Positions 43,360 to 63,882 of a DNA stretch of 64,000 nt are shown here, in pieces. Positions within the stretch are counted from its first letter, which is position 1, and each line of letters opens with the position of its first letter. The stretch is from NCBI GenBank assembly GCA_029742005.1, contig GCA_029742005.1_4113.1; one strand, 5' to 3'. This stretch comes from a phage. The translations under genes and the position numbers were made by a program. The notes under the pieces were generated by a model. The model did no database searches. It was not told the DNA's origin and worked only from the letters and a program-made list of their open reading frames with translations.

Positions 43360-43370
43360 AAGTTTTATTT

Positions 43371-43983: not shown

Positions 43984-44000
43984 CAAAAAAGAATAAAAAA

Positions 44001-44561: not shown

Positions 44562-44650
44562 AAAGTACTTGCATAGTACTTAGATTCATGTATAATGTTT
44601 TACATAGAGAGGGGGAAATGGTTCTCCCTCCTAAATTAAGGAGTTTTATC

Positions 44651-48837: not shown

Positions 48838-49068
48838 ATGCAAAATGAAATGATATACTTAACACATGATGAATTTCAAGAGAAGATGTTAAAAGCCAAT
48901 AACATTACTCTTAAGTTCGTTCCAAATCAATCAATATATGAAATGTCTGCGAATGTATTGTTTGAGAAGCTACCATACGTTCTTGGAACTGATAAACAAG
49001 AATTTATGGTTCAAAATATGATTGAGCATCTTGCAATGAGTATTATGGAAAAAGTAAATGCAAAATGA
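48838..49068 (+). CDS. small protein, family C (divergent)
   Basis: ..LGTDKQEFM..; start may be 48850. Confidence 0.45.
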   Translation: MQNEMIYLTHDEFQEKMLKANNITLKFVPNQSIYEMSANVLFEKLPYVLGTDKQEFMVQNMIEHLAMSIMEKVNAK

Positions 49069-49318
49069 AATGAAATACTTAACATATAATGAATACGTCG
49101 AGAGATTAGTTAGTGCCAAGAGATATGCCAATCAACTTCCTAATGATCCAAACCAAACCCCAGAGGAAAAGAATGCGGAAGCTCTATTCCAAGCACTACC
49201 ATACCTTCTTGGAACTGATAGGCAGGAGTATCACGTTGAACGTATAATTAAATCTCTTAAAATCACTATTAAGGAAAAAGTAAATGCAAAAGGAAATGAT
49301 ATACTTAACAGACGATGA
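49058..49318 (+). CDS. small protein, family C (divergent)
   Basis: ..LGTDRQEYH..; start may be 49070. Confidence 0.45.
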   Translation: MQNEMKYLTYNEYVERLVSAKRYANQLPNDPNQTPEEKNAEALFQALPYLLGTDRQEYHVERIIKSLKITIKEKVNAKGNDILNRR

Positions 49319-49541
49319 GTTAAAAGAACGATTAATTAAATCCAGAAAACTTACAAATCAACTTCCAAACGACACAAACAAGTCACCTGCCGAAAGGAGT
49401 GCAGAAGTTTTATACATTCAACTCATGTACTTTCTTGGAACTGACAGACAAGAGTATTACATTGAAAGTATGCTTCGATATCTTAAATTCTCTATAAAGG
49501 AAAAGATACATGCTCAAGAATTTAAAAATCCTAACAGCTAA
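49284..49541 (+). CDS. small protein, family C (divergent)
   Basis: ..LGTDRQEYY..; start may be 49296. Confidence 0.45.
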   Translation: MQKEMIYLTDDELKERLIKSRKLTNQLPNDTNKSPAERSAEVLYIQLMYFLGTDRQEYYIESMLRYLKFSIKEKIHAQEFKNPNS

Positions 49542-49767
49542 TGAATATCATAAGATTGTAATGGAAACTAATAGTGCTTACGCTAAAAAATCAAACCCAA
49601 AGTATATACTGGAACACACATTTGAAGAACGTCAATTAGCTCTAGTTGAAGCAAAACTTCTTGCACTATTAGGAACAAACTATCAGGAAGAATACAATAG
49701 AAAACTAATATACCTTTTAACTAAACACATCAGGAAAAGAAAAAAGCATGAAACACTTGACAGATGA
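49510..49767 (+). CDS. small protein, family C
   Basis: ..LGTNYQEEY.. Confidence 0.5.
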   Translation: MLKNLKILTANEYHKIVMETNSAYAKKSNPKYILEHTFEERQLALVEAKLLALLGTNYQEEYNRKLIYLLTKHIRKRKKHETLDR

Positions 49768-49978
49768 TGAACATGGGCTTATAGTAATGGATGTAATCAA
49801 CATCGAATTCAAAAAGTTGATACGCTACCGTTGTTATGAAGATAAGCAACTCGTTCTAGCAGAACAGAAGTTGTTTCGACTCTTAAACACAAACTACCAA
49901 GCACAATACGAAGAATCGTATATGTACCTTTTGGCGAGGAAAGCAAAAAGAGATTATGAAAATTTTAAGCCACGATAA
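49748..49978 (+). CDS. small protein, family C
   Basis: ..LNTNYQAQY.. Confidence 0.5.
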   Translation: MKHLTDDEHGLIVMDVINIEFKKLIRYRCYEDKQLVLAEQKLFRLLNTNYQAQYEESYMYLLARKAKRDYENFKPR

Positions 49979-50171
49979 ACAAACAGAATTGTTAATCTTT
50001 AATACAAGTAAATTCTTAAACATAACATTGTCTGATATAGATGAGGATGAAAAAGAGTTACTTAGAGCAGATTTAAGAGTTCTTTTATATATTGGAACTA
50101 ACTTCCAAGAGCAATTCGTTGAGGACTACATCGATGAACTTAAAGAATCTGTACTGAGAACATGCAAATGA
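49956..50171 (+). CDS. small protein, family C
   Basis: ..IGTNFQEQF.. Confidence 0.5.
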   Translation: MKILSHDKQTELLIFNTSKFLNITLSDIDEDEKELLRADLRVLLYIGTNFQEQFVEDYIDELKESVLRTCK

Positions 50172-50413
50172 AAATCCTTTCACCAAGTGAATACCACGAA
50201 CTATTAAGTAGTTTAATTCTAAAATTGTATATAGCAAAGACCACAGATTTACCAGATGAAGAAAAAAATATTCTAATGAGTGAAATCTATGTTAATTCTA
50301 CCCTAGGGACTAACTATCAAGAATGTAATATTAATGATTACATCAAAGAACTAAAAAGGTTTATCCAATGCAAATGCGAATCATTACCGGAGAAGAATAC
50401 CGAACAATCATAA
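50168..50413 (+). CDS. small protein, family C
   Basis: ATGA overlap; ..LGTNYQECN..; 3' end runs into next gene. Confidence 0.5.
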   Translation: MKILSPSEYHELLSSLILKLYIAKTTDLPDEEKNILMSEIYVNSTLGTNYQECNINDYIKELKRFIQCKCESLPEKNTEQS

Positions 50414-50610
50414 ATGGACTGTTTTTGAAGTTATTTGCCATTAACACATCAAAACTACCAGATACGGATAAAATTATTAAGTTAAATGAAATCTACGTTC
50501 AAGCTACTCTAGGAACTAACTATCAAGAAGCCAATGTGTATAATTACATTAATACACTTAAAAGGGTAATACAATTAAAATGCACAGACAGCACATACAC
50601 AAACCCCTAG
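50374..50610 (+). CDS. small protein, family C
   Basis: ..LGTNYQEAN..; near-duplicate of 50168. Confidence 0.5.
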   Translation: MRIITGEEYRTIINGLFLKLFAINTSKLPDTDKIIKLNEIYVQATLGTNYQEANVYNYINTLKRVIQLKCTDSTYTNP

Positions 50611-50810
50611 GAACAGCAGAATACATTGAACTAATGGCAGCAAACTTCTCATCCTTTCAGAAACTGATGCAAGAATCAAATAATGATTTAGAATATCATA
50701 TCAAAAGTTCAGATTTAAGATTGTTACTCACTCTAGGAACAGACAGTCAGTACAAATTCGTACAGGAGCATATTAGAGCACTTTTAAATGGCATCAGGAA
50801 TAAACTATGA
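50580..50810 (+). CDS. small protein, family C (divergent)
   Basis: ..LGTDSQYKF.. Confidence 0.45.
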   Translation: MHRQHIHKPLGTAEYIELMAANFSSFQKLMQESNNDLEYHIKSSDLRLLLTLGTDSQYKFVQEHIRALLNGIRNKL

Positions 50811-51022
50811 AGGTAATATCAAACCAAGAGTACTTGGCACTATTCAGAAAAAATAGTCAAGAATTTCTGAATCTTGATACAAGAACTGATATAAGTGAAC
50901 TTGAAAAAAATCTTTTGCGTTCAGAGATGATAGTACTGACACTCTTAGGAACACAGCACCAAGAGAGAACTGTTAATTCACACATAGGGATTCTTATACA
51001 GATAGTACAGGAAAAGATATGA
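50807..51022 (+). CDS. small protein, family C (divergent)
   Basis: ATGA overlap; ..LGTQHQERT.. Confidence 0.5.
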   Translation: MKVISNQEYLALFRKNSQEFLNLDTRTDISELEKNLLRSEMIVLTLLGTQHQERTVNSHIGILIQIVQEKI

Positions 51023-51240
51023 GAATCATAACACAACAAGATATTCTTAAGTTCACAAGGGTTCATGCATCTGAATTTGATGCTATATTATCAAAAAGTT
51101 ACAACAACCCTTATACAGAAGATGTACACTACAGTGAATTATGGGTGTATATACTTTTAGGTACAGATCATCAAGAGCAAGCAGTACAGAAGTATTTGTT
51201 AGCGTTAAGTACTGCTACTGCTAATGGAGTATGTGTTTAA
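51019..51240 (+). CDS. small protein, family C (divergent)
   Basis: ATGA overlap; ..LGTDHQEQA.. Confidence 0.5.
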   Translation: MRIITQQDILKFTRVHASEFDAILSKSYNNPYTEDVHYSELWVYILLGTDHQEQAVQKYLLALSTATANGVCV

Positions 51241-51241
51241 T

Positions 51242-51484
51242 ATGAAAGTACTGACAGAATTAGAAATGTATCATAGATTTAATAAGTACTATCATTTACT
51301 TAAACCTATACAGAGGATTAAGTGTCCCTTTGTAGTGAAACAGGTATTAATTTATGAGCATAAGTTATTTGTATCATTAGGTACGAATGAACAAGAGTAT
51401 TATTTGAAGTTGTACTTAATTACTTTAATTGAATTGATTAATTACAAAACTCAGAAAGCGAAGAAATCTAAAAATGAAAACTAA
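51242..51484 (+). CDS. small protein, family C (divergent)
   Basis: RBS GGAG; ..LGTNEQEYY.. Confidence 0.5.
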   Translation: MKVLTELEMYHRFNKYYHLLKPIQRIKCPFVVKQVLIYEHKLFVSLGTNEQEYYLKLYLITLIELINYKTQKAKKSKNEN

Positions 51485-51815
51485 AATTCAACTCAGGGTA
51501 TACATATCGTATGAAAATATATACGTTAAAAGTAGTCTATGTAAAGATGTAATGGACTACAAAGGTAAACCATTCACAGTTACTTACAGTTTAACAGGAG
51601 GTTTATATATCTCTTTTGCTAATTACGAAAATAATATGTACGAACACATTGACATTGAAGATTTAAGTACTTTATCACCAGAGGAATACTTCCAGGAATC
51701 ATTAGTATGGGATTTAGAGTTCCCTATGCCATTAGTACATAAGATGATAGTACTAATGAAAGAATCTAAACAGGAGCCTAATAGTGCTTATGAAGAACAC
51801 ATTATTGAGTATTAA
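51474..51815 (+). CDS. FQ-motif family D protein inside family C array
   Basis: ..SPEEYFQESLVWDLEF.. Confidence 0.5.
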   Translation: MKTKIQLRVYISYENIYVKSSLCKDVMDYKGKPFTVTYSLTGGLYISFANYENNMYEHIDIEDLSTLSPEEYFQESLVWDLEFPMPLVHKMIVLMKESKQEPNSAYEEHIIEY

Positions 51816-51827
51816 GAGTACTGATAT

Positions 51828-52043
51828 ATGAAAAGATTATCATACAAAGATTACAGTAAACTTATCAGTACTTTACAACCAGAAATTAGAAGAATTAATT
51901 ATCTTCCTATATCTAACGAAGAACGTGTAGTACTGAAAAATGAGTTAATCTTAAAACGCACAGTAGGTACTAACTATCAAGATAATAGTGTTCGCGATTT
52001 AATTAGAGGGTTAATGATCACAATAAAGGCCAAGTGCTATTGA
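51828..52043 (+). CDS. small protein, family C
   Basis: ..VGTNYQDNS.. Confidence 0.5.
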   Translation: MKRLSYKDYSKLISTLQPEIRRINYLPISNEERVVLKNELILKRTVGTNYQDNSVRDLIRGLMITIKAKCY

Positions 52044-52107
52044 CAGTACTTGACGGAGCTTTTCATTACTGATATAGTGCATCAACGTTAATCATAGGGT
52101 ACAGATT

Positions 52108-52353
52108 ATGTTAAAATTTTTAAATTTCCTTATCGTCTTGTGTATTGTTCTTGGAATTGCACCGTTTGTATTAGCGTATCTGGATTCAGATGAAATGCAG
52201 AAGATGAATTGCACAAAGACAGGACAGAGTAGAGAAGAGACGGTTATGATGCCTGTAACGGTTATTGTGAATAACATACCAATTACGAACATGATTCCTA
52301 CCCTAACGACAACGTACCAGTACTCTTGTGCTGACGGAGAGAGGTGGAGATGA
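52108..52353 (+). CDS. small membrane protein
   Basis: Hydrophobic N-terminus; RBS ATAGGG weak. Confidence 0.45.
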   Translation: MLKFLNFLIVLCIVLGIAPFVLAYLDSDEMQKMNCTKTGQSREETVMMPVTVIVNNIPITNMIPTLTTTYQYSCADGERWR

Positions 52354-52661
52354 AATTTAATATAGCAAAAACATCGAGTATATGTATTTTTGGTTATTCC
52401 TATGAATTGGGTGATATTGACATTCTATTGTACAAAACGAATGGTGTTATGCATTTCAAGTACCAGGATGAAGAGGCAGACAATTATCTTTTACCTAATT
52501 TAGTACAAATGCAGGAAGAGGAATTATTCCAGTACAGCTTAATATACGACATTGATATTTGCACGATGCCAGTATTAATTAGTATTCAAAAAGTGATGCT
52601 CGATATGTATGATAAGCTAATACAAGGTATGTCAGGGAGGATCATTGAAATCGATATATAA
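52344..52661 (+). CDS. FQ-motif family D protein
   Basis: ..QEEELFQYSLIYDIDI.. Confidence 0.5.
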   Translation: MEMKFNIAKTSSICIFGYSYELGDIDILLYKTNGVMHFKYQDEEADNYLLPNLVQMQEEELFQYSLIYDIDICTMPVLISIQKVMLDMYDKLIQGMSGRIIEIDI

Positions 52662-52857
52662 GAATTTACCTAATGAATATTTGTTGAAGTACAAAGAGTT
52701 TATTAAAGATGTATATGTAGATCCTTTTAATATCAAATTTGCAGAGTTCGAAGTATCATTTTATCTAGGGACAATAGTACAGGACCAATACGTTGATAAT
52801 CTAATAAGGTGTTTGAAAAAGGAGATACAATGCAGACCCAAATGTACAAAAAAATAA
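52645..52857 (+). CDS. small protein, family C (divergent)
   Basis: ..LGTIVQDQY.. Confidence 0.45.
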   Translation: MKSIYKNLPNEYLLKYKEFIKDVYVDPFNIKFAEFEVSFYLGTIVQDQYVDNLIRCLKKEIQCRPKCTKK

Positions 52858-53093
52858 ACTGTTATTTGTATGCATCAAAGTACAGGGATTTTTGTTTACG
52901 AGGGGGAGAGGAAGATTTTGCTCTGAGATTATCGGAATTTAATATGTTATTTTATCTTGGTACATCAGTACAAGAAGAAATGGTACAGAAATTTATCAAT
53001 CACCTTGTACAAAAAATTAATATGCAAATTTTGATGCTTGAGTTACAGAATGAGATAAACAAATATGAACCCAACAATAGTACAGGATCTTAA
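52830..53093 (+). CDS. small protein, family C (divergent)
   Basis: RBS AGGAGA; ..LGTSVQEEM.. Confidence 0.45.
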   Translation: MQTQMYKKINCYLYASKYRDFCLRGGEEDFALRLSEFNMLFYLGTSVQEEMVQKFINHLVQKINMQILMLELQNEINKYEPNNSTGS

Positions 53094-53454
53094 ACAAGTA
53101 ATATTCCTTTTGAATACAAGAAGTGAAATGTATACAGAGTTTAAAGAGATTAATGCATTTTATCAGAATTTTGTAATTCAAGAGTTCAGTGATTTAATTA
53201 CAGATGCATTATTTGAATTATCGGAAAAATACAAAGGAACAGAGTTCAGTGTTAAAAATGTATTACGTTCTTTATCAACGCGTATAATAAAATTAGATCA
53301 TTTCAAATTTGAAAATAAAGATTTATTCAGTCACAATCCAAGTACAGCTTTATATTTTATTCCTGATTCAGACAAAAATCATCCTATTCATTACGGATGG
53401 ATTTTGTCGTACATAGTACAAGGAAAGGAGTATCCTATTAAATGGAACGATTAG
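53065..53454 (+). CDS. hypothetical protein
   Basis: 129-aa ORF. Confidence 0.45.
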   Translation: MNPTIVQDLKQVIFLLNTRSEMYTEFKEINAFYQNFVIQEFSDLITDALFELSEKYKGTEFSVKNVLRSLSTRIIKLDHFKFENKDLFSHNPSTALYFIPDSDKNHPIHYGWILSYIVQGKEYPIKWND

Positions 53455-53602
53455 GGCGATTAGATTATTACACAATTAATACAAATTATTTGTTGCGTAA
53501 TATAAAATCCGATTACAAAATATGGATAAAGAACAGAGATAGTATGTGTTATGAATTTTATTTAGATTATGCCATCAAACGCTTTTTAAGAGAAGAACAT
53601 TA

Positions 53603-53794
53603 ATGCACACACCGCACAAAGAGCACAAAAATACAAAAACGATAAATGTTTTAAATGATTCTTTATTGGTGAGTATAAATTTATATTATAAAATTCATTT
53701 AAATGGTGGTATTGAAAATTTTAGTTATTATTTGAGTGCAATATCGCAAGAGCATTTAATATACCAAGATCATTTATTGCACCCGAATCCATAA
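53603..53794 (+). CDS. hypothetical small protein (doubtful)
   Basis: ORF only; no RBS; AT-rich. Confidence 0.25.
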   Translation: MHTPHKEHKNTKTINVLNDSLLVSINLYYKIHLNGGIENFSYYLSAISQEHLIYQDHLLHPNP

Positions 53795-53802
53795 GGCGAA
53801 TT

Positions 53803-54348
53803 ATGAATGAGATAGAATTATTAGCACACAAGATTAGTACAATAATGCTTATCCTAAATAACAACCATCCTATATCGCAGATAGATGGAATCCTGAGTCA
53901 GAGGACAGGTGGTAGTTTATATTTGACATTAACAGAGGTTATCGCAAGGAATTACATTGATATTGAAATCGAGAACAGTGATGCATCAGGAAAGGTTGAT
54001 GTAGGTGCATTAATCAGTTCAAATCCAGTATCAGCATCCCCATTGACCAAAGGTGTTAGTACAGGATTCGAAGGGTATTTGTGGTACAATACCAATGATG
54101 ATTATTTTATATATCAGCATTCCAATACAAATTATGATGAAGACAAATTTCAGTTCATAGACCCTTATGATGAAGCTGAAGTATTTCAAAAATCATTAAT
54201 CACAAAACCGCATGAGATGATGTATCTAATGTTATTCAGTACAATGCATTTGAATCCATTAATTAAAGGTTTAAAATTTTATATTCAATTGAAATTAGTC
54301 CATGTAGTTTATGATTTATTAATGCAAGGATATAGTTATGAAGTATAA
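53803..54348 (+). CDS. FQ-motif family D protein
   Basis: ..YDEAEVFQKSLITKP.. Confidence 0.5.
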   Translation: MNEIELLAHKISTIMLILNNNHPISQIDGILSQRTGGSLYLTLTEVIARNYIDIEIENSDASGKVDVGALISSNPVSASPLTKGVSTGFEGYLWYNTNDDYFIYQHSNTNYDEDKFQFIDPYDEAEVFQKSLITKPHEMMYLMLFSTMHLNPLIKGLKFYIQLKLVHVVYDLLMQGYSYEV

Positions 54349-54655
54349 AATGCTTAATACAGTATCAGGGATATATGTAGAATTAGAATCCGATTATTCA
54401 GATGGATGGAATTTTATTAAACGACACGATAGAAATACATGGTACATGGCACATTTGGATAATGACGTAATAATAGATAATTTTGTCGATTTTAATACAT
54501 TATCAGAAGAAGAATTTTTCCAAATGCAATTTGTGCTTGATACAAATGGATTTGATTTGCTATTATTAAGGAATATTCAGAAAGCGGTTAATGAATTCAT
54601 AATCCAAAATAATTCAGGTAAAATGGGGATGTTCCATGATCTGGAAGTACAATGA
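54338..54655 (+). CDS. FQ-motif family D protein
   Basis: ..LSEEEFFQMQFVLDT.. Confidence 0.5.
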   Translation: MKYKMLNTVSGIYVELESDYSDGWNFIKRHDRNTWYMAHLDNDVIIDNFVDFNTLSEEEFFQMQFVLDTNGFDLLLLRNIQKAVNEFIIQNNSGKMGMFHDLEVQ

Positions 54656-55193
54656 AATTCAGTACACCTACGCTAATGCAATCCTTATGGGACAAAAGTT
54701 AGCTTGTATTGTTGCAGCCTTATATAATGCACAGAAAGATTACAAGCGTCATATCCACAAATGTATTGGTATTATTCCATCGAAGTACAATACATATATT
54801 GCGTGCACGAGTCATTTTGATAAACGATTCAATACACCTGATACCCCAAATGCCAGTAGTGTTATTGGTCTTTTGGATTTCGCACCTGGTGCTGTTATTG
54901 GAAAGAATGATTTAGAGTACACATGGTATAATAAAAATGCCCCGTTAGTAATGGGAAAATATGATACAGAAACGAACAAAACAATAGAGTACAATACATA
55001 TAAATCAGAGGAAGAATTTTTCCAAGGTTCATTGCTTGTACCAGTGCGTTTGTTGTTTTATAATGTCCTTATTAGTACAGTACACAATAGTCCATTACAC
55101 AAGAATCACAAAATTAATTTCAATTTTTGTGCTTATGCGATTGATGGTGTGTATGAGTGTTTAATGGAGGTATTGAGTTATGAAGCTGAATAA
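54636..55193 (+). CDS. FQ-motif family D protein
   Basis: ..KSEEEFFQGSLLVP.. Confidence 0.5.
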   Translation: MIWKYNEIQYTYANAILMGQKLACIVAALYNAQKDYKRHIHKCIGIIPSKYNTYIACTSHFDKRFNTPDTPNASSVIGLLDFAPGAVIGKNDLEYTWYNKNAPLVMGKYDTETNKTIEYNTYKSEEEFFQGSLLVPVRLLFYNVLISTVHNSPLHKNHKINFNFCAYAIDGVYECLMEVLSYEAE

Positions 55194-55521
55194 TACATTT
55201 GATATTAATAAGTTAAGAGAATGGTTTTATAGTATTGAAATTGAAGCCATCCCGTATCATAGATATGAACAATATAATTTAACCAGTATTGATATCCGTG
55301 AGTTGTACGCGTATTATCAAAGTGCATTAGAGATGCATAAGTTATTTTTGAGTACAGATTTTGTTATAAATTACAATTTTGAGGAATTTAATAATTATAA
55401 TTTAGTACAGAAATATGTAGTAGCAAAGTACATGTACCTTCAAGGAATTACAAGTAATTTGGAATTCAATACAGTCCTGGCTTTAGTTGAGGTAATTTTA
55501 TGCAGTACATGTATGATTTAG
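55180..55521 (+). CDS. hypothetical protein (array member, motif not evident)
   Basis: RBS GGAGG. Confidence 0.45.
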   Translation: MKLNNTFDINKLREWFYSIEIEAIPYHRYEQYNLTSIDIRELYAYYQSALEMHKLFLSTDFVINYNFEEFNNYNLVQKYVVAKYMYLQGITSNLEFNTVLALVEVILCSTCMI

Positions 55522-55895
55522 AGTTTAGTTTAGATGCTGCCTTTAAATTTGTTCACAAGATAGAAACAATATACAGTACATTATGTGCAATACAATCAGT
55601 ATCATCTGAGTTTGATGTTGGTGAAAAATATCAGGTATGGAATAATACATTTCTAAACAAAGAACGTTGCTCTACGGGGTTTAATATTTTAACATTTAAT
55701 CCCAGCAATTGTTACCCAGAGAAGCATGAACGTTATCCGAATGACGACATGTGGTTTGATTACACAAAAGATGGTGATATGTCATCCCTTGTAGTTCCTG
55801 ATGATTTTAATGCCGAAGATTTAACGGAAGAGTGGTGGTTTCAACAGAATTTAGTTCACGATGATATTGATTTATTTTTTTTATGTAGTATTTAA
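55500..55895 (+). CDS. FQ-motif family D protein
   Basis: ..LTEEWWFQQNLVHDDIDL.. Confidence 0.5.
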   Translation: MQYMYDLEFSLDAAFKFVHKIETIYSTLCAIQSVSSEFDVGEKYQVWNNTFLNKERCSTGFNILTFNPSNCYPEKHERYPNDDMWFDYTKDGDMSSLVVPDDFNAEDLTEEWWFQQNLVHDDIDLFFLCSI

Positions 55896-56022
55896 AATGC
55901 TTTATCACAACAATATATTAAAAGATAGTGTGTTTTTTTCATGTCTATATATTGATGATTTGTACAATGAAATCCAAATCAACATTCCCAGCACGCCTGT
56001 ATCGTAAGATATGGGCTTTTTT

Positions 56023-56050
56023 CGTTTTGGTATTGACAAAGAAGTGCAAA
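56023..56050 (+). promoter_or_regulatory. internal promoter TTGACA-16-TATCAT
   Basis: Consensus -35; precedes RBS AAAGGAGAA and GTG start. Confidence 0.45.
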
Positions 56051-56089
56051 GCTGTTATCATGTGTAATCATTTTAAAGGAGAACATATA

Positions 56090-56602
56090 GTGAGTTTCAT
56101 AATCCCAAGTACATACGAAGATGCATCAAGTGCAGTTCATAAGATTCATTATATTTTTAATTTAATTATTAGATCTGCAAAAATTAAAATGTATGCACCT
56201 CTTGTGGAATACGATAAAAATGAGGAAATTTTTGTTAGCACAGACCAAATTATTTTTCCATATTTCAATGAAGATAGATTGTGGTTCATGCATTTAGCTG
56301 CATTACAAAAATATAAAATGTCAATTCGTAATAATTTGGATATACCGTTATATCATCCTGATATTGGAGAGGATGAATATTTTCAGTACAGTACAGTACA
56401 CCGCCATGAAGATATCTTTGTTGCTATGCTTATTGCTAAATTGAATACCGTTGATTTGGAGCAGTACAAATACAATAATAAATCATGTAAGATCATAATC
56501 CCTGCATTCATAGCTCTTTATGATTATGTGGTGCATAACAAAAAAGATGATACATATGCTTTCAATGAAGAGTATTTGAATTTTTTTAAGGAGAACATAT
56601 GA
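56090..56602 (+). CDS. FQ-motif family D protein
   Basis: GTG start after AAAGGAGAA; ..IGEDEYFQYSTVHRHED.. Confidence 0.5.
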   Translation: MSFIIPSTYEDASSAVHKIHYIFNLIIRSAKIKMYAPLVEYDKNEEIFVSTDQIIFPYFNEDRLWFMHLAALQKYKMSIRNNLDIPLYHPDIGEDEYFQYSTVHRHEDIFVAMLIAKLNTVDLEQYKYNNKSCKIIIPAFIALYDYVVHNKKDDTYAFNEEYLNFFKENI

Positions 56603-57126
56603 GCAGTGAAGTGCTGAAATCAATGACATTCAATGAAATTGGTGCATTTAAAGATAAGATCATTGATTGCATTGAATACATGATTTGTAGTAATATCGAA
56701 AGTATTGAGATATTTAACAAGACAAATCGCTCTTACCATATGATGTACATTGCAAACAATAATGGTATCATTCCATTTATTTCGGATAGTACAATATGGT
56801 ACGCATGTGATACGAAAAAAACCACAATAGGTTTACATTCATTTGAGACACATTATGATCTAATTATTCCTGAACATTGTATGCAAGAAGAAGAATATTT
56901 TCAAATGCAATGTATACATTCACCATTAGTGTTGTTTAGTTTATATATTATACCTTATATCACCAAATGTGTTCATGAGAATAAAGCTCCGTGGAATCAT
57001 GAATTTGTATCGTTGAAGTTATTGTATAATGTATTAGTAGAATATTATGATTACAGGCACAATGGTACAATCAGTGATGTATGGGATTTTGAATCGCTAA
57101 GGGTGAAAACATACACAGGTGAATGA
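56599..57126 (+). CDS. FQ-motif family D protein
   Basis: ..MQEEEYFQMQCIHSP.. Confidence 0.5.
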   Translation: MSSEVLKSMTFNEIGAFKDKIIDCIEYMICSNIESIEIFNKTNRSYHMMYIANNNGIIPFISDSTIWYACDTKKTTIGLHSFETHYDLIIPEHCMQEEEYFQMQCIHSPLVLFSLYIIPYITKCVHENKAPWNHEFVSLKLLYNVLVEYYDYRHNGTISDVWDFESLRVKTYTGE

Positions 57127-57742
57127 TATGACCAGAATTAAAATGTATGATTTGATGCAGTACAGTAAAATTGCCATTCCAGTGCTTAATAAAGTGCTGG
57201 ATGCATTCATTGCCAAATACCCTGAGAATTCAGTGTTATGTATTCCATTTAGTGTTCCAGATAAAGATGATATATTCCAAGTGAATGTCAGTACACGTGG
57301 TATTACATTGCAGCAGAAATACATGGATACGGAATATTATGGAATAAAGTTGGATTCAGTACAGGGTTCAAAATCAGCCTATGATTTTTTTGTTCCTAAT
57401 AATATAGAGTCATGGGAAACAAACATTTCAAAGAAAGATGAAAATGATGTTCCTATTAGTGGTGTGTTCAACAATAAAGTTTTTTATTATTACGAAACCG
57501 ACAAATTCCCTGAAGAGTTATATTACAATTCAGAAATGATTGAAGATGTAGATGCATTCATGTTTCAATTATCGTTAGTACATGATATCATTGATGTTCA
57601 AGAGTTAAGAGCAGAAATCAATTTAGCTAAAGAGTTATCGGACATGCTGCCACCGTTTAGTATGCTTTTTTGTGAAGGAGGTTATTTTTCAAAAGAAGTG
57701 TTTGAACATTTCGTAGATGTTGTAAAAGGGTTGGATATATAG
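57119..57742 (+). CDS. FQ-motif family D protein (divergent)
   Basis: ..EDVDAFMFQLSLVHDIIDV.. Confidence 0.5.
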   Translation: MNDMTRIKMYDLMQYSKIAIPVLNKVLDAFIAKYPENSVLCIPFSVPDKDDIFQVNVSTRGITLQQKYMDTEYYGIKLDSVQGSKSAYDFFVPNNIESWETNISKKDENDVPISGVFNNKVFYYYETDKFPEELYYNSEMIEDVDAFMFQLSLVHDIIDVQELRAEINLAKELSDMLPPFSMLFCEGGYFSKEVFEHFVDVVKGLDI

Positions 57743-57743
57743 T

Positions 57744-57938
57744 ATGCTTACAGTTGATGTTAAACAAAAATACCGTAAGTTTGATTGGTTCACCGACAGT
57801 TTCCAGCTTGAATTATTACATTTGAATATCTGTGAAACATTATGTGCAGAAACACAAGATGAATTTGATGATAGAGTGCTTCACATCGTAGTTCTTTCTT
57901 GCTTTAAACATTTTGGTTATTTTTTCGGACAGAATTGA
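57744..57938 (+). CDS. small hypothetical protein
   Basis: 64-aa ORF. Confidence 0.4.
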   Translation: MLTVDVKQKYRKFDWFTDSFQLELLHLNICETLCAETQDEFDDRVLHIVVLSCFKHFGYFFGQN

Positions 57939-57946
57939 GGTAAAAA

Positions 57947-58465
57947 ATGCATCAACACAAGCATCATTCATATGATTTTGCAATTAACATTATGAAGTTC
58001 ATTCGAGCGTTGGAGGATGGGAAGCTTAGTCATAAGTACACCAAAGTGGGTGACAATTGGTTCAGAAATGATGATGATGAGTTCAGAAGTCATAAGATTG
58101 TTTACAGCAATAATTACAGTGCCAATTACCTACAAGATGTAGTGATGTGTTTTGAATACGTGTTACAGTTCAGGGGTTCCATCAGTCCTGAGCTAAGAGA
58201 ACACATGTACATTCGATACCTACCAATGCTTAAGGATGAGAAATCAATATTCAATTCAGTACACCACAGAGTACGAGAGAGAACATTCAGAGATATTTTG
58301 GAAGATGAAGCTGCCTATTTTCAGCAATCATTGATTGATGCTCCTGATGTGTTACAGATGCAGAATTTGTATAATGTATTAGATGCGAACATCGATACGG
58401 ATATCTTTTTTTCCTTAAGTGATTATGAAACATTTTTGGAAGATTTAAAGGAAATAGGATTATGA
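57947..58465 (+). CDS. FQ-motif family D protein
   Basis: RBS GAGGT; ..EDEAAYFQQSLIDAPD.. Confidence 0.5.
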   Translation: MHQHKHHSYDFAINIMKFIRALEDGKLSHKYTKVGDNWFRNDDDEFRSHKIVYSNNYSANYLQDVVMCFEYVLQFRGSISPELREHMYIRYLPMLKDEKSIFNSVHHRVRERTFRDILEDEAAYFQQSLIDAPDVLQMQNLYNVLDANIDTDIFFSLSDYETFLEDLKEIGL

Positions 58466-58806
58466 GTAGATTTTCAGTTTATATAGTAAACGTCAGTAAA
58501 GATGGTAGTTTAATTGAATTTGATGTAGTTGATAACAATGATAATTCATATGGTATTAAGGTACAGGACAATGATGTACAGTTCAGTACAAGGACAAATT
58601 TTGAGAATCCAGTCCAAGTTCCGAATTTCATAGAAGATGAAGCTGCACGATTCCAATACGAAACGGCCTTTGATAATTTAGCGATGCATATTATTATGCA
58701 AGAAAGTTTAGTTCAATTGCTTCAGGTATTCAGACAAAATATATATGTACATGAAGTGTCGATTAATGGCATTCAAAGTTCCGTTTTGTTCGGTACAAAT
58801 ATGTAA
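58462..58806 (+). CDS. FQ-motif family D protein
   Basis: ATGA overlap; ..EDEAARFQYETAFD.. Confidence 0.5.
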   Translation: MSRFSVYIVNVSKDGSLIEFDVVDNNDNSYGIKVQDNDVQFSTRTNFENPVQVPNFIEDEAARFQYETAFDNLAMHIIMQESLVQLLQVFRQNIYVHEVSINGIQSSVLFGTNM

Positions 58807-58816
58807 GGAAAGTACA

Positions 58817-59371
58817 ATGAGTTCAATGAGTTTATTAGATACATTAGAAAAAGACAGAAGTGCCATTAAGAGATTAAAAAATCTTGTCCAGAGCATTGCG
58901 AACAACGCTGAGAAGTTCAGTGACAATCTTAGTATAGGTGATATAACCAGTACAGGAATAAAATCCCTGAAGTCAGATTTATTAATTCATAAGGAAGATA
59001 AATTATTATTTGTATTGAGTTCAGATTTAATGGTTGCAAGTAATGGTTTCAATTCGATATCAACACAAGATGGTAGCACAGGATTATATCTATCACAGGG
59101 TGTCCAGACGAACGAACAGAAGTGTTTTAGTTCAGGAGTACAGAATCCCTTTAAGTTCAGTACAGAACAAGCTACAGAGCTTTTAGAGGCTTCAGAAGAG
59201 ATGTTATTTCAGTACAAAACGGTTCATACAGATTTTGAATTACGATGCATGTACGCTGTTAAGCATTATGTTCAGGAGTTCGAGGATTTAAGTTATCTTT
59301 TAGTTCGAACGAATACAAAGAACATTGGTGCATTAGAAGATTACATTTCAAAAGTTGTTAAAGGTTGTTAA
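58817..59371 (+). CDS. FQ-motif family D protein
   Basis: RBS AAGGAAAG; ..SEEMLFQYKTVHTDF.. Confidence 0.5.
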   Translation: MSSMSLLDTLEKDRSAIKRLKNLVQSIANNAEKFSDNLSIGDITSTGIKSLKSDLLIHKEDKLLFVLSSDLMVASNGFNSISTQDGSTGLYLSQGVQTNEQKCFSSGVQNPFKFSTEQATELLEASEEMLFQYKTVHTDFELRCMYAVKHYVQEFEDLSYLLVRTNTKNIGALEDYISKVVKGC

Positions 59372-59949: not shown

Positions 59950-60147
59950 AGACGTTTCATTTTGACAGGCCGCAGGGGGGTCAAAAAAATTTCCGCTGAA
60001 AAACATGCTAAGGTATATGTTTAATATAAAGTTTTATATTGTGTTTTTCAGAGTACAGTTCATGTTTCCTGAAACAAAAAAAATACCCCGCCACCGAACG
60101 TGCTCCTTATATTGGAGTTTACCTTATTAATTATAGTAGAGATTAAG

Positions 60148-60525
60148 ATGGAAATAAAATATAATGAATTTTGTGCAAGGACATGGATGTACACTGGTGA
60201 GTTAGTTACGCACTCTAACTTATACAAGGGTGATTTAAACTACGCTAGGGACAAGATTTTAAAGTACTGGAATGCTGACTTTTATTTGATGGATTTTAGT
60301 ACTGGGTTTAGGGGTAAAGCAACCGAGATGTTGGACTATACAGTACTTGATGATGCTGCACTGTTTCAGGAGGCATTAGTATTTGATAAGAAGTACATCT
60401 GTACATTAGAAGAGATGATTGAATTACAGCGTAGAATTAAATGTATTCACAGGGAATGTATAGATATCTGGTGCAGTACTGGTGAAGTTGATTTTTGTAA
60501 TCATTTCAATCTAGGGGAAGTGTGA
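60148..60525 (+). CDS. FQ-motif family D protein (LFQEALVFDKKYICT subgroup)
   Basis: ..DDAALFQEALVFDKKYICTLEEMIELQ.. Confidence 0.5.
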   Translation: MEIKYNEFCARTWMYTGELVTHSNLYKGDLNYARDKILKYWNADFYLMDFSTGFRGKATEMLDYTVLDDAALFQEALVFDKKYICTLEEMIELQRRIKCIHRECIDIWCSTGEVDFCNHFNLGEV

Positions 60526-60881
60526 TGGAATTTGATTTTTTAATATCAGTACATTCTTTTAAGCACAGTTTTCAGTACTTTTGTAATTTAAACAAAGGTG
60601 ATTTAATGCACAGTGCGAATGAGTATATTCATTTTACTGATGGTAAATTCTCATTTATTGATTACAGTTCATTAGATTTTCCATACACTGATATGCCGGA
60701 CTATACATTGATGGATGCTGGTGAACTATTTCAAGCTGCATTAGTATTTGACAAGAAGTACATCTGTACATTTGAAGAAGTAATTACTATACAAAATGAA
60801 ATGAAGGTGTATGCATCGTTGAATAAACCTAATGAATGTATTAATCAAGAATACAAATTCAATATAGGAATTCCAAAATGA
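60522..60881 (+). CDS. FQ-motif family D protein (same subgroup)
   Basis: ATGA overlap; ..DAGELFQAALVFDKKYICTFEEVITIQ.. Confidence 0.55.
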   Translation: MMEFDFLISVHSFKHSFQYFCNLNKGDLMHSANEYIHFTDGKFSFIDYSSLDFPYTDMPDYTLMDAGELFQAALVFDKKYICTFEEVITIQNEMKVYASLNKPNECINQEYKFNIGIPK

Positions 60882-61237
60882 CATATGATTATTCTATGTA
60901 CTATTATAAGTTACCTAAAGGATGGGACTTGTGCTGTAATCTTATTAAGGGAGACTCGGAACATGAGTTGAGTTTATATATGCACTACAAAGATTCTTGT
61001 TTTAAATTTATTCATGTATTACATGATGGCTATGACTATGAATCTGAGAGTCTTATAGATTATACAGTACTGGACGATGGTGAACTATTTCAGGAAGCAT
61101 TAGTGTTTGATAAGAATAAGTACTCCTGTACATTTGAAGAAATGGTTTCTTTGCAAAATGAAATGAAGAGATTTGAAAAAGAAAACGTATTTAATCCATC
61201 CCCATCAAGAACGAATAATTATTATTTCAATATATGA
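60878..61237 (+). CDS. FQ-motif family D protein (same subgroup)
   Basis: ATGA overlap; ..DDGELFQEALVFDKNKYSCTFEEMVSLQ.. Confidence 0.55.
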   Translation: MTYDYSMYYYKLPKGWDLCCNLIKGDSEHELSLYMHYKDSCFKFIHVLHDGYDYESESLIDYTVLDDGELFQEALVFDKNKYSCTFEEMVSLQNEMKRFEKENVFNPSPSRTNNYYFNI

Positions 61238-61246
61238 GATTATAAA

Positions 61247-61741
61247 ATGACATTACAGAGTTCATTGGAAAAAGCAAAGAAGATTCATGAGTACATGAAT
61301 ATGGCAAAAGAAGGTTCAGTTTACGGTGTTTTCAAAGACACAAGTACTCAATATTATGTGCCAGATAACCTCCTTTATAATGACTGCTCAGATACAGAAA
61401 CGTGCGTACTGGATACAGAAACGTGCATACTAGATACCGACCCTAATGATTATGAATGTTTCATTGATATGCATAATGAGTACATGGTCTATATTAATGA
61501 TGCAGATATTACCATATACAGTACTGACTGCGATTCCGATGACATTATAATTCCGAGTGAAGTACTAGAAGGTCAGTGGGATAGTGAAGAGTATTACTTC
61601 CAACAAAGTACTGTTTACGATGATGAAGTACTTGAAGTATTAGTTATTATGTGGTACTTTAAAAGTATTGGTTCTGGGAACTTCTATTTCGATTACAGAT
61701 ACGTAACGAAAACTGTAGATAACGGTATTAACAGGGGTTGA
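61247..61741 (+). CDS. FQ-motif family D protein (EEYYFQ/WYFK subgroup)
   Basis: RBS GAGATT; ..WDSEEYYFQQSTVYDDEVLEVLVIMWYFKSI.. Confidence 0.55.
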   Translation: MTLQSSLEKAKKIHEYMNMAKEGSVYGVFKDTSTQYYVPDNLLYNDCSDTETCVLDTETCILDTDPNDYECFIDMHNEYMVYINDADITIYSTDCDSDDIIIPSEVLEGQWDSEEYYFQQSTVYDDEVLEVLVIMWYFKSIGSGNFYFDYRYVTKTVDNGINRG

Positions 61742-61742
61742 A

Positions 61743-62213
61743 ATGAGTTTAGAAAGAGCATTAGAGATTGCGAAGTTAATTGATTTATGCAGCAAAGAAA
61801 TTGTATCAAATTGTCTCAATGGATATCTATTCAAGGAAGGTAAATCATATTGTCGAATGATATACGATGACAGTAGTGAATATATCCATATGTATGAAGA
61901 AAACTTAGATGATTCTGACATAGTACTCACAGGATGTGATGTTAATTTGGAAGATAATTACATGTACTTCTGCCGTGATGCTGATATTTTAATCCAAGAT
62001 TCATTAATTCAAACAGGTGCACCAGAGGTATATCTTCCGTATTCAGTACTGGATAATAACTGGGGTAGTGAAGATTACTATTTCCAGCAGAGTACTATAT
62101 ATAATGAAGATATACTTGACAAACTTGTTATTTCGTGGTACTTTCATAACACGGATTATAGTAGCTTCTACATAGACTTGGATCTACTAAGAGTACTTAA
62201 AGAGGATATATGA
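61743..62213 (+). CDS. FQ-motif family D protein (same subgroup)
   Basis: ..WGSEDYYFQQSTIYNEDILDKLVISWYFH.. Confidence 0.55.
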   Translation: MSLERALEIAKLIDLCSKEIVSNCLNGYLFKEGKSYCRMIYDDSSEYIHMYEENLDDSDIVLTGCDVNLEDNYMYFCRDADILIQDSLIQTGAPEVYLPYSVLDNNWGSEDYYFQQSTIYNEDILDKLVISWYFHNTDYSSFYIDLDLLRVLKEDI

Positions 62214-62650
62214 GTTTAGAAAGAGCACTAGAACTAGCCAACAAAATACATCAGTACTACGATAAAATAAAAAGTGGGTTCTATGGTGATAAAGTACATG
62301 CATATGGGAATGAATATTACCTCACAGGAGTAAAGAGATACTCTAATGATATTTTACTTATGGGTCATGATAAAGACTATACTATACAGTACTCTTCATG
62401 TAGTCAATATACTAGTTTTATGGTATATATTCCTGGTACTAAGATTACTTTTGACACATCAAATACACCTGTTGACTTTGAAGTGTTGGAAGGACCGTGG
62501 GGTACTGAAGAATATTACTTCCAACAGAGTCTCATTTTTAACCAAGAAATGCTTGATTCCTTGGTTGTGTTGTGGTACTTTAAGGAATTGAATTTTGAAC
62601 CATTCTTTCTTGACTGGGGATCATGTGAGTATTTAATTTCAGGGGAATAA
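62210..62650 (+). CDS. FQ-motif family D protein (same subgroup)
   Basis: ATGA overlap; ..WGTEEYYFQQSLIFNQEMLDSLVVLWYFK.. Confidence 0.55.
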   Translation: MSLERALELANKIHQYYDKIKSGFYGDKVHAYGNEYYLTGVKRYSNDILLMGHDKDYTIQYSSCSQYTSFMVYIPGTKITFDTSNTPVDFEVLEGPWGTEEYYFQQSLIFNQEMLDSLVVLWYFKELNFEPFFLDWGSCEYLISGE

Positions 62651-62652
62651 TA

Positions 62653-63141
62653 ATGTCATTACAAAGTGCATTGAAAGAAGCAAAGAAAATTCATGAGTTC
62701 ATGATTATGGTACAGGAAGGTTCAGTACCAGGTGTATACAAAACATCAGATACGGAATTCTTCGTTAAGGATAGAGATGATTATGACGATTCAGAGGTAT
62801 GTGCAGAAACATTAGTACTGCACACTGATACTGGTGACAGTGATAACTGTGAATATCATATGTACAATCAGTACATTAGTTATTGCCGTAATGAAGATAT
62901 TACCATCTACAACACAGATAGTGATGCTGATGACACTATCATTCCTTATTCAGTACTGGAAGGTCCGTGGGATAGTGAAGAATATTACTTCCAGAATAGT
63001 ACTATCTACAATGAAGAAGAACTGGATGTTATTGTGATTATGTGGTATTTCAAAAGTATTGACTCCAGTAGTTTCTATTTTGATTATGAATATGTAGAGA
63101 ATACAGTAGGAGAAGGTAATGTCATTACAAAGTGCTCTTGA
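62653..63141 (+). CDS. FQ-motif family D protein (same subgroup)
   Basis: ..WDSEEYYFQNSTIYNEEELDVIVIMWYFKSI.. Confidence 0.55.
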   Translation: MSLQSALKEAKKIHEFMIMVQEGSVPGVYKTSDTEFFVKDRDDYDDSEVCAETLVLHTDTGDSDNCEYHMYNQYISYCRNEDITIYNTDSDADDTIIPYSVLEGPWDSEEYYFQNSTIYNEEELDVIVIMWYFKSIDSSSFYFDYEYVENTVGEGNVITKCS

Positions 63142-63571
63142 AAAAGCAAAAGAACTACATGGATACTTTGAAGATATAAAGGCCGGAAAGTTCAAAGAAG
63201 TGTACAAAGCCGAGAACGGTAACTACTACAAAGATGAAATGTATAATAACTCCGTTGGTGTAAGGGTTATTCTTGGGTTGAATTCCAATAGTCCTATATC
63301 GTTTTCTGAATACAATAGAGATGCAGAATTTATTAGTTATGTTGAAAATGGTAGCATTCGTTTTATTAATAGACAAAAACCATTAATTTTGAATTATGAA
63401 GTACTGGATGGACAGTGGAATAGTGAAGAGTATTACTTCCAAAACAGTACTGTATATGATGATGAAGTACTTGAAGCATTAGTTATTATGTGGTACTTCA
63501 AGAGTGTTAGCTGTCCTCGATTTTATTTGGATTTCGAAGATCTTCGTAAAGATCCAGAAGGTATAGAATGA
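63119..63571 (+). CDS. FQ-motif family D protein (same subgroup)
   Basis: ..WNSEEYYFQNSTVYDDEVLEALVIMWYFKSV.. Confidence 0.55.
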   Translation: MSLQSALEKAKELHGYFEDIKAGKFKEVYKAENGNYYKDEMYNNSVGVRVILGLNSNSPISFSEYNRDAEFISYVENGSIRFINRQKPLILNYEVLDGQWNSEEYYFQNSTVYDDEVLEALVIMWYFKSVSCPRFYLDFEDLRKDPEGIE

Positions 63572-63882
63572 AAAACTTATTCAGTGTTCAGTACGTTCCT
63601 GGTGAAATTGGTTTATTGTATCTATTTGACCATGATAATTCATTATTACTAGTAGTGAAGAAATGCCAAGCTAGTTCGTTTGTTGAATACATTCACGATA
63701 GTGAATACATTCCTGATTTCCTAGAGTGTGATTATCACGATGAACATGAATCATTTATTTTTCAGGAATCACTCGTTTGGGATAAGTCTATTAACTTCTT
63801 TACGTTAATTGAATTACAAAAGCAGGTGAAGTATCATTGGGATTACTTAATTACACAGGATTACATTGAGATAGAAATATAA
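63568..63882 (+). CDS. FQ-motif family D protein
   Basis: ATGA overlap; ..HESFIFQESLVWDKSINFF.. Confidence 0.5.
   Translation: MKNLFSVQYVPGEIGLLYLFDHDNSLLLVVKKCQASSFVEYIHDSEYIPDFLECDYHDEHESFIFQESLVWDKSINFFTLIELQKQVKYHWDYLITQDYIEIEI

What the first reader, a model, noticed from the sequence alone, without database searches (positions are those of the whole stretch)
60148..63571. Recent local amplifications within family D
Three consecutive genes (60148-61237) share ..[DA]G[EA]LFQ[EA]ALVFDK(N)KY[IS]CT[LF]EE[MV]..Q. Five consecutive genes (61247-63571) share MSL[QE][SR]AL..AK.. at the N-terminus and W[DGN][ST]E[ED]YYFQ[QN]S..WYF[KH] at the C-terminus. These sub-blocks are far more similar internally than to other members, indicating ongoing tandem duplication and divergence.
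Basis: seen in the sequence. Interest (0 to 1): 0.4.

Follow-up and report, generated by a model that had tools for sequence, protein, structure and literature searches.

The report
Old tandem gene duplicates in jumbo phage
Eight neighbouring small genes of a 121Q-like giant E. coli phage form two real sub-groups of a roughly 40-member gene family of unknown function, but the duplications are ancient; only gene loss and swapping between isolates is recent.

Summary
Three genes (60148-61237, "A") and five genes (61247-63571, "B") are clearly more alike within each block (BLASTP 63-169 bits) than to any other family member in the window (35 bits or less).

The window comes from an Asteriusvirus, a 121Q/PBECO4-like E. 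coli jumbo phage. "Recent" is not supported:
- Paralogues share 31-56% of residues and 49-69% of bases.
- Synonymous sites are saturated (dS 0.9-2.7).
- Every copy has a one-to-one orthologue in the closer related isolates.
- Trees group genes by orthologue, not by genome.
- dN/dS between orthologues is 0.07-0.39, so no gene-wide positive selection.

"Ongoing" is partly supported. Copy number differs between isolates through recombination between paralogues:
- a 589-bp indel flanked by an 85-bp repeat;
- an A3/A4' chimeric gene in phage vB_Ec-M-J;
- a B1 cassette replacement;
- 1 to 4 A-type and 0 to 5 B-type genes in divergent relatives;
- a polymorphic 21-nt duplication inside B1.

The family has about 37-40 genes per genome. 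Its proteins are acidic and are absent from the published phAPEC6 virion proteome. There is no Pfam or PDB match and function is unknown. Tandem arrays in 121Q are already published, so this is a modest addition.

The parts
60148..60525 (+). A1, sub-block A gene (125 aa, pI 4.9)
   Evidence: ORF. phrog_15629 E 2e-58. 63-69 bits to A2 and A3. Orthologues at 65-98% aa in the intact relatives examined. Orthologue dN/dS 0.39.
60525..60881 (+). A2, sub-block A gene (118 aa). Its first ~85 nt (60523-60607) is the single copy of a repeat that is duplicated 589 bp apart in 121Q
   Evidence: 100% aa identical to 121Q_368 and about 81% to all other isolates. AF2 model pLDDT 82.
60878..61237 (+). A3, sub-block A gene (119 aa)
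   Evidence: Deleted in phage vB_Ec-M-J by a crossover with a fourth A-type gene.
61247..61741 (+). B1, sub-block B gene (164 aa, net charge -24)
   Evidence: phrog_9317 E 4e-66. Closest paralogue is B4 (56% aa, 69% nt, dS 1.2). Replaced by an A-type gene plus a 61-aa ORF in WPEC3, Turkey3, ph0011 and vB_Ec-M-J.
61391..61432 (+). 21-nt tandem duplication inside B1 (DTETCVL/DTETCIL), polymorphic between isolates
   Evidence: the repeat finder family D6, 90% identity. Only one unit is present in phages UE-S1 and A4.
61743..62213 (+). B2, sub-block B gene (156 aa)
   Evidence: Orthologues in A4 and Turkey5.
62210..62650 (+). B3, sub-block B gene (146 aa)
62653..63141 (+). B4, sub-block B gene (162 aa, net charge -26), the most constrained copy
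   Evidence: Orthologue dN/dS 0.07. AF2 model pLDDT 85.5, pTM 0.81.
63119..63571 (+). B5, sub-block B gene (150 aa), with two allele classes among isolates (95% and 69% aa)
63568..63882 (+). Next family member (104 aa, FIFQESLVWD), in neither sub-block
   Evidence: phrog_32253. 26 bits or less to A genes and 20 or less to B genes. dN/dS 0.09.
51474..59371 (+). Twelve further, mutually distant members of the same family upstream (starts 51474, 52344, 53803, 54338, 54636, 55500, 56060, 56599, 57119, 57947, 58462, 58817)
   Evidence: Iterated HMM search. Alignment with invariant FQ. Pairwise scores 35 bits or less.
59950..60147 (+). About 200-nt non-coding gap before block A, with a promoter-like site at 59962-59990 (TTGACA-17-AAAAAT)
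   Evidence: Consensus match only, not evidence of function.

Best explanation
The eight genes are two old sub-families (A and B) of a lineage-specific multigene family. The family is defined by a C-terminal core with the motif [DE][DE]x[aromatic/aliphatic]-F-Q-x-S-[LT]-[IV]. It occupies roughly a tenth of the genome of 121Q-like Asteriusvirus jumbo phages.

Shown:
- The sub-families arose by local tandem duplication well before the sequenced isolates diverged.
- Every copy has since been kept as a distinct gene under purifying selection.
- The array is still being remodelled, mainly by homologous recombination between short shared stretches of neighbouring paralogues. This deletes or swaps whole genes. 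Exchange of diverged alleles between co-circulating phages adds further change.
- This is birth-and-death evolution, not a recent amplification and not concerted evolution.

Inferred:
- The products are small, acidic, soluble, non-virion proteins made inside the infected cell.
- A conserved C-terminal helical core carrying the FQ motif acts as a common scaffold, or possibly a common docking element.
- The variable N-terminal sheet and loops give each paralogue its own target, most plausibly host or competitor factors (take-over or counter-defence).

Confidence is about 0.85 for the evolutionary account and about 0.3 for the functional guess.
For: Origin and age:
- Within-block similarity far exceeds between-block similarity.
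- dS is saturated at 0.9-2.7 and nucleotide identity is 49-69%.
- No long, highly similar DNA tracts exist between copies.
- Orthologues are one-to-one in 11 isolates.
- Trees group by orthogroup, including phages A4 and Turkey5.
- In two uncultivated arrays the best paralogue lies within 2 positions for 11 of 15 and 5 of 8 members.

Selection: orthologue dN/dS is 0.07-0.39 per gene and 0.06-0.62 per region.

Remodelling:
- 121Q, slurp01, BF17, G17 and Turkey3 carry an extra 589 bp (an A2 5' fragment plus another family gene, 121Q_367) bounded by an 85-bp direct repeat. The window has a single copy of that repeat.
- vB_Ec-M-J carries an A3/A4' chimera whose switch point lies at the start codons.
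- B1 is replaced by A4' plus a 61-aa ORF in the WPEC3 clade.
- Counts are A4 1A+4B, Turkey5 2A plus 3-4B interleaved, EJP2 4A+0B.
- Alleles are mosaic: A2 is 100% to 121Q but about 81% to the rest, and the gene at 58817 is 99% to WPEC3 but 58% to 121Q.

Protein properties:
- pI is 4.05-5.7 for 20 of the 21 members (one is 6.6), and net charge reaches -26.
- AF2 models are confident and place the FQ motif in a helix, in 10-residue blocks averaging pLDDT 87-96.
- The phAPEC6 virion proteome lists nothing between gp347 and gp549, whereas the B1 orthologue is gp442c.
- Fold matches are only to uncharacterised proteins of RaK2-like jumbo phages.
Against: - No direct evidence of function, expression time or binding partner.
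- No Pfam, PADLOC, PDB-sequence or PDB-fold match.
- Acidity and non-virion status are weak indicators.
- The polarity of the 589-bp indel (deletion in the window lineage versus insertion in 121Q) is inferred from parsimony only.
- NJ trees on short proteins are rough.
- NG86 dS values above 1 are only lower bounds on age.
- Site-level positive selection was not tested.
- Three of the four A-type genes of EJP2 cluster together. That could be a younger lineage-specific duplication or gene conversion, so some recent gain elsewhere in the genus is not excluded.
Confidence: 0.8

Rival explanations
1. The two sub-blocks are recent local amplifications, and the array is currently growing by tandem duplication followed by fast, positively selected divergence.
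For: Neighbours are each other's closest relatives. Copy number differs between isolates. One truly recent 21-nt duplication lies inside B1.
Against: Synonymous sites are saturated between all paralogue pairs, and the closest pair (B1/B4) has dS 1.2. Each copy has its own orthologue across the genus. dN/dS is well below 1. The events that can be reconstructed are a deletion and replacements.
Confidence: 0.05
2. Concerted evolution. The blocks are very old, and gene conversion between neighbours keeps them similar.
For: Short shared stretches exist at the 5' ends and around the FQ core. Recombination between paralogues does happen. Three EJP2 A-type copies cluster together.
Against: In the core group, paralogues cluster by orthologue rather than by genome. 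No tract exceeds 83% identity over 137 nt. The conserved tracts coincide with the protein's conserved core, as purifying selection would produce.
Confidence: 0.05
3. Cassette acquisition. The sub-blocks were not duplicated in place. They were assembled by horizontal import of related genes from other asteriusvirus-like phages through recombination at conserved flanks.
For: Strong allelic mosaicism is seen. There are alternative cassettes at one locus (B1 versus A4' plus a 61-aa ORF). Phage A4's B3 sits inside the PBECO4/SP27 allele group. The whole 64-kb window is mosaic between isolates.
Against: Import explains allele exchange but not why the most similar family members sit side by side in three independent arrays. 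The family is confined to this phage lineage and its uncultivated relatives, so any donor would itself have had to make the duplicates.
Confidence: 0.08
4. The family are packaged (internal head or ejected) proteins, and the conserved acidic-FQ motif is a maturation protease site or capsid-targeting signal.
For: The motif is short, invariant and embedded in otherwise divergent proteins. From memory, it resembles 3C/TEV-type sites (ENLYFQ/S, LEVLFQ/GP) and the S-x-E sites of giant-phage prohead proteases.
Against: None of these genes is in the 62-protein phAPEC6 virion proteome. AF2 places the motif inside a confidently predicted helix rather than an exposed linker. No protease link was found.
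Confidence: 0.03

Closest known systems
Tandem arrays of paralogous genes in jumbo phages 121Q and G (Hua et al. 2017, mBio, PMC5646251; repeated for phAPEC6 in PMC7247149)
   Same: Same phage group and same phenomenon. Long head-to-tail arrays of related small genes are read as tandem duplication that helped the genome to expand.
   Different: [quoted passage not shown] It is probably the ~70-aa LGTNYQ family at window 45.5-53 kb. I found no description of the FQ-motif family, its A and B sub-blocks, their age or their copy-number variation.
PHROGs phrog_15629 and phrog_9317 (unknown function)
   Same: A1-A3 and B1-B5 match these families over their full length with E 1e-55 to 1e-67.
   Different: PHROGs treats them as separate, unannotated families. 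Their common origin (hhalign) and membership of a family of about 40 genes are not recorded there.
Multigene families of large eukaryotic DNA viruses (ASFV MGF360/505; poxvirus ankyrin and host-range families). From general knowledge, not tested here.
   Same: Diverged tandem paralogues lie in variable genome regions. Copy number differs between isolates through recombination between paralogues. Members are individually conserved. These are classic birth-and-death dynamics.
   Different: The sequences and hosts are unrelated. A role in host range or immune evasion is demonstrated there and only conjectured here.
Poxvirus 'genomic accordion' (K3L amplification; Elde et al. 2012). From general knowledge.
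   Same: Tandem copy-number change by recombination serves as an adaptive route.
   Different: Accordions are recent, near-identical copies that expand and collapse within a few passages. The copies here are saturated at synonymous sites and are stable orthogroups.
Uncharacterised proteins of RaK2-like jumbo phages (Klebsiella RaK2 H6X4L9, H6X4M2, H6X4M3, H6X4N8; Cronobacter GAP32; Serratia BF; Yersinia fHe-Yen9)
   Same: Foldseek matches to the B4 model: RaK2 H6X4L9 at E 6e-4, Serratia BF at 3.6e-3, and the remaining named hits at E 0.01-0.6. The consecutive RaK2 accessions suggest arrays there too.
   Different: Sequence identity is only 12-31%. Function is unknown there as well. Array structure in those phages was not examined.

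Membership tests
   All 8 genes and 13 others in the window carry it. F and Q are the only invariant columns.
   Iterated hmmsearch E 1e-18 to 1e-41. hhalign of A versus B gives probability 96%, E 4e-9.
phrog_15629 (block A) and phrog_9317 (block B) | Full-length HMM match | tested here: met
   E 2e-58 to 2e-60 for A1-A3 and 1e-55 to 2e-66 for B1-B5, covering nearly the whole profile.
Recent tandem amplification ('genomic accordion') | Head-to-tail copies on one strand | tested here: met
   Eight co-directional genes separated by overlaps of up to 23 nt or gaps of up to 9 nt.
Recent tandem amplification ('genomic accordion') | Copies nearly identical at synonymous sites (dS close to 0) | tested here: not met
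   dS 0.9-2.7 and nucleotide identity 49-69%. The best DNA tract is 83% over 137 nt.
Recent tandem amplification ('genomic accordion') | Copy number differs between very close isolates by gain of units | tested here: inconclusive
   Differences exist, but the resolved events are a deletion, a repeat-flanked indel of uncertain polarity and a cassette swap. No gain of a near-identical unit was seen.
Gene family under diversifying (positive) selection | dN/dS above 1 between orthologues or young paralogues | tested here: not met
   Per gene 0.07-0.39 and per region 0.06-0.62. Site models could not be run.
Any curated protein family (Pfam-A, PADLOC, PDB) | Match above the curated threshold or a significant fold match | tested here: not met
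   No Pfam hit above cut-off. PADLOC best E 0.026. PDB sequence profile best E 0.32. Foldseek against PDB best E 0.18 and 4.2.
Virion or packaged proteins | Detected in purified particles | not testable with these tools
   Literature only. The phAPEC6 virion proteome (62 proteins) has no entry between gp347 and gp549, and the B1 orthologue is gp442c.

The most novel reading that the evidence does not exclude
The FQ-motif family has about 37-40 genes per genome and no PDB fold match. It is confined to 121Q/RaK2-like jumbo phages and uncultivated relatives. It could be a large, unrecognised arsenal of host-directed (counter-defence or take-over) proteins. In that reading the invariant acidic-FQ helix is a shared functional element: a docking site for one common host or phage partner, or a recognition site for a 3C-like protease. 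The variable part of each paralogue would then select a different target. The A and B sub-blocks and their isolate-to-isolate turnover would be the visible trace of an arms race.
Probability: 0.12. Interest if true: 0.6.

Novelty: new member of a known kind. Interest (0 to 1): 0.3.

Why it matters
Most jumbo-phage genes have no known function (83% in phAPEC6). Part of that "dark matter" consists of a few large, self-generated gene families. This work shows that one such family evolves by slow birth-and-death, with individually conserved members. That tells experimenters the copies are probably not redundant. It also shows that natural variants lacking single members already exist: the window phage lacks 121Q_367, vB_Ec-M-J lacks A3, and the WPEC3 clade lacks B1. 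These are ready-made material for host-range or defence-system screens. The finding does not change any concept, because tandem arrays in 121Q are already published.

Tried and rejected
- Pfam, PADLOC and PDB-sequence searches of the eight proteins or the family profile gave nothing significant.
- Foldseek of both AF2 models against PDB gave no match with E below 0.1.
- A profile search of 1.84 billion representative proteins returned only 50 clusters. A word-indexed search of 5.8 billion returned 42. Those whose origin I checked are asteriusvirus or uncultivated-relative genes, so no annotated distant homologue was available to transfer a function.
- P0027 turned out to be just another asteriusvirus contig.
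- Literature searches for paralogues in Asteriusvirus found only generic remarks.
- I wanted to show that the array is more divergent than its surroundings. Instead, the whole 64-kb window is mosaic between isolates, so no such contrast can be claimed within the window.
- Promoter and terminator scans were at or below shuffle expectation and say nothing reliable about transcription units.
- No tRNA genes were found.
- CMSTMSU (UNVERIFIED record, many broken ORFs) was excluded from the selection analyses.
- The semi-global identity matrix is unreliable for distant pairs. It was replaced by BLASTP bit scores.
- The region split for A2 was mis-anchored on an earlier FQ dipeptide and should be ignored.
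Full report
**What the window is.** The 4-kb stretch matches 36 phage records, all E. coli or Salmonella jumbo phages of the genus Asteriusvirus. The best match is 121Q at 97.7%, and most others are at 84-94%. All annotated genes under the match are "hypothetical protein".

**Checking the observation.**
- An iterated profile search starting from these genes recovers 19 + strand ORFs between 51474 and 63882. Two more carry the same motif.
- In an alignment of all 21, the only invariant columns are the F and Q of the motif [DE][DE]x[FYLW..]FQxS[LT][IV].
- BLASTP bit scores give a clean picture. Within A (60148-61237, three genes) they are 63-84. Within B (61247-63571, five genes) they are 63-169. 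All other pairs are 35 or less.
- PHROGs splits them the same way: phrog_15629 and phrog_9317, both of unknown function.
- A profile-profile comparison confirms that A and B are homologous over the C-terminal ~71 columns (probability 96%, E 4e-9).
- The A motif occurs exactly three times after two small corrections: A1 has DAALFQ, and the spacing before the final Q is three residues.
- The N-terminal B motif fits three genes literally and five when loosened.

**Are the duplications recent? No.**
- Codon alignments of the paralogues give 49-69% nucleotide identity.
- The proportion of synonymous differences is 0.52-0.73, i.e. dS 0.9-2.7, which is saturation.
- Paralogue dN/dS is 0.21-0.73. The closest pair, B1/B4, has dS 1.2.
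- The longest DNA repeat between copies is 137 nt at 66-83% identity and coincides with the conserved protein core.
- Each of the eight genes has its own orthologue, in the same order, in the closer isolates that carry the locus (65-100% aa).
- NJ trees group sequences by orthologue, not by genome. B1, B2 and B3 have orthologues even in the divergent phage A4, and B2 has one in Turkey5.
- The duplications therefore predate the radiation of the sequenced asteriusviruses.

**Selection.**
- Between orthologues, median pairwise dN/dS is 0.07 (B4) to 0.39 (A1). This is similar to neighbouring genes (0.09-0.48).
- Splitting each gene into N-terminal, middle, core and tail regions gives 0.06-0.62. 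The variable middle is only slightly higher than the core.
- All eight are thus real, individually maintained genes.
- There is no gene-wide or region-wide positive selection. Site models could not be run.

**Is anything ongoing? Yes, but mainly loss and replacement.**
1. 121Q, slurp01, BF17, G17 and Turkey3 have about 589 bp more between A1 and A2.
   - The extra DNA holds a 5' fragment of A2 fused to unrelated sequence (121Q_366) and a further family member (121Q_367, LSEEEFFQESTVWN) that is absent from the window.
   - In 121Q this insert is bounded by an ~85-bp direct repeat made from the start of A2. The window has one copy of the repeat.
   - That is the expected product of recombination between the repeats. 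The polarity is inferred, not shown.
2. In WPEC3, Turkey3, ph0011 and vB_Ec-M-J, B1 is replaced by a fourth A-type gene (A4', 45% identical to A2) plus a 61-aa ORF.
3. vB_Ec-M-J lacks A3.
   - Its gene at L012 3889-4233 follows the A3 upstream region and first codons, then switches to A4' at the shared ATG...TGATT stretch.
   - From there it is nearly identical to WPEC3 A4'.
   - This is a direct footprint of unequal crossover between tandem paralogues.
4. More distant asteriusviruses differ widely: A4 has 1 A and 4 B; Turkey5 has 2 A interleaved with 3-4 B-like genes; EJP2 has 4 A and no B.
5. Inside B1, a 21-nt unit (DTETCVL) is duplicated in most isolates but single in UE-S1 and A4.
6. Alleles are shuffled.
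   - The window's A2 and A3 are 100% identical to 121Q while A2 is about 81% to all others.
   - B5 and the next gene have 95-99% and 68-70% allele classes.
   - The gene at 58817 is 99% to WPEC3 but 58% to 121Q.

**Extent of the family.**
- In 121Q the array continues for about 14 kb past the window end, with at least 16 more members. That gives roughly 37-40 genes per genome.
- Exhaustive profile searches of 1.84 and 5.8 billion proteins find only 50 and 42 clusters.
- Those I traced are asteriusvirus genes or come from uncultivated relatives. Two contigs over 100 kb carry 27 and 17 members within 16 kb.
- In those arrays the best paralogue of a gene is usually within two positions (5 of 8 and 11 of 15). 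This supports local duplication as the general growth mode.

**What the proteins might do.**
- There are no Pfam, PADLOC or PDB-sequence matches.
- AlphaFold2 models are confident: A2 pLDDT 82, B4 pLDDT 85.5.
  - Each shows a meander of short strands, then a short helix carrying the FQ motif, a long helix and a final strand.
  - B proteins add an N-terminal helix.
- Foldseek finds nothing in PDB. In BFVD it finds only uncharacterised proteins of 121Q, RaK2, GAP32, Serratia BF and Yersinia fHe-Yen9 phages.
- Twenty of the 21 members have pI 4.05-5.7 (one is 6.6). B1, B2 and B4 carry net charges of -21 to -26.
- The published phAPEC6 virion proteome has no entry between gp347 and gp549, while the B1 orthologue is gp442c. 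The proteins are therefore probably non-structural.
- Genes overlap or abut, consistent with co-transcription and coupled translation. Promoter and terminator scans are uninformative.
- My best guess, marked as inference at about 0.3, is intracellular host-directed proteins that share a scaffold and differ in their variable surface.
- The resemblance of the motif to 3C/TEV protease sites is from memory and untested. Its predicted helical, high-confidence context argues against an exposed cleavage site.

**Comparison with what is known.**
- Hua et al. [quoted passage not shown] The phAPEC6 paper repeats this.
- That array is probably the ~29-copy LGTNYQ family at 45.5-53 kb of this window.
- I found no description of the FQ family or its sub-blocks.
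- The dynamics resemble the multigene families of ASFV and poxviruses rather than a poxvirus-type "accordion" (general knowledge).

**Verdict.**
- The case is a further, better-characterised example of a known kind of jumbo-phage gene family.
- Interest is modest at 0.3. It would rise only if the family proves to be a counter-defence arsenal.

Noticed in passing
window 45562-53093: About 29 tandem genes of 65-94 aa share an LGTNYQ-type motif (a different family). At the 3' end they are interleaved with the first FQ-family genes (51474, 52344). [quoted passage not shown] 2017.
   Followed up: partly
L017 (121Q 173000-200000), about 173.9-187.9 kb of 121Q: The FQ-motif family continues beyond the window end, with at least 16 more members. 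That gives roughly 37-40 per genome, spanning about 36 kb with interruptions.
   Followed up: partly
L018 (ENA ERZ14189038, 101-kb contig) and L020 (JGI 3300007747, 109-kb contig): Uncultivated large phages carry 27 and 17 FQ-family genes within 16 kb. One member (P0056) has no tblastn match in any isolated phage. The identity of these phages was not determined.
   Followed up: partly
L012 (vB_Ec-M-J) 3849-4233: This is a chimeric gene. The upstream region and first codons come from A3, and the rest is nearly identical to the A4' gene of WPEC3. It is a clean footprint of unequal crossover that removed one tandem copy.
   Followed up: yes
window 58817-59371 versus 60525-61237: The window phage is itself a mosaic. 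The gene at 58817 is 99% identical to the WPEC3 clade and 58% to 121Q. A2 and A3, 1.2 kb downstream, are 100% identical to 121Q. A recombination breakpoint must therefore lie between them.
   Followed up: partly
L013 (phage A4) 2474-3010: Gene A4_348 is annotated 'DNA ligase' in the record, but it is a 178-aa FQ-family member (family HMM score 30). This is probably a misannotation.
   Followed up: no
L005 (UE-S1) 3003-3731: A1 and A2 are annotated as one 242-aa fusion ORF in UE-S1. This is either a real in-frame fusion or a sequencing frameshift.
   Followed up: no
window 55995-56061: A terminator-like hairpin (55995-56016) is followed at once by the best promoter-like site in the region (TTGACA-17-TATCAT, 11 of 12 matches). 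It lies just upstream of the likely true start (56060) of the family gene listed as 55928-56602. It may be an internal transcription boundary of the array.
   Followed up: no
window 1-45000: No phage record covers 80% or more of 1-25000 or 25001-45000 in one place. The best coverages are 48% and 70%, in many pieces. The whole window therefore lies in a highly mosaic part of the genome, with RCC1-like 'DNA condensation' genes, HNH endonucleases and similar. GC skew reverses between about 10 and 27 kb, where the long ORFs presumably run on the minus strand.
   Followed up: no
all 21 family members, e.g. window 62968-63000: The invariant motif (E-E-x-Y/L-F-Q then x-S) looks like the cleavage sites of 3C/TEV-type proteases (ENLYFQ/S, LEVLFQ/GP, recalled from memory). 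No protease link was tested, and the AF2 models put the motif in a confident helix.
   Followed up: no
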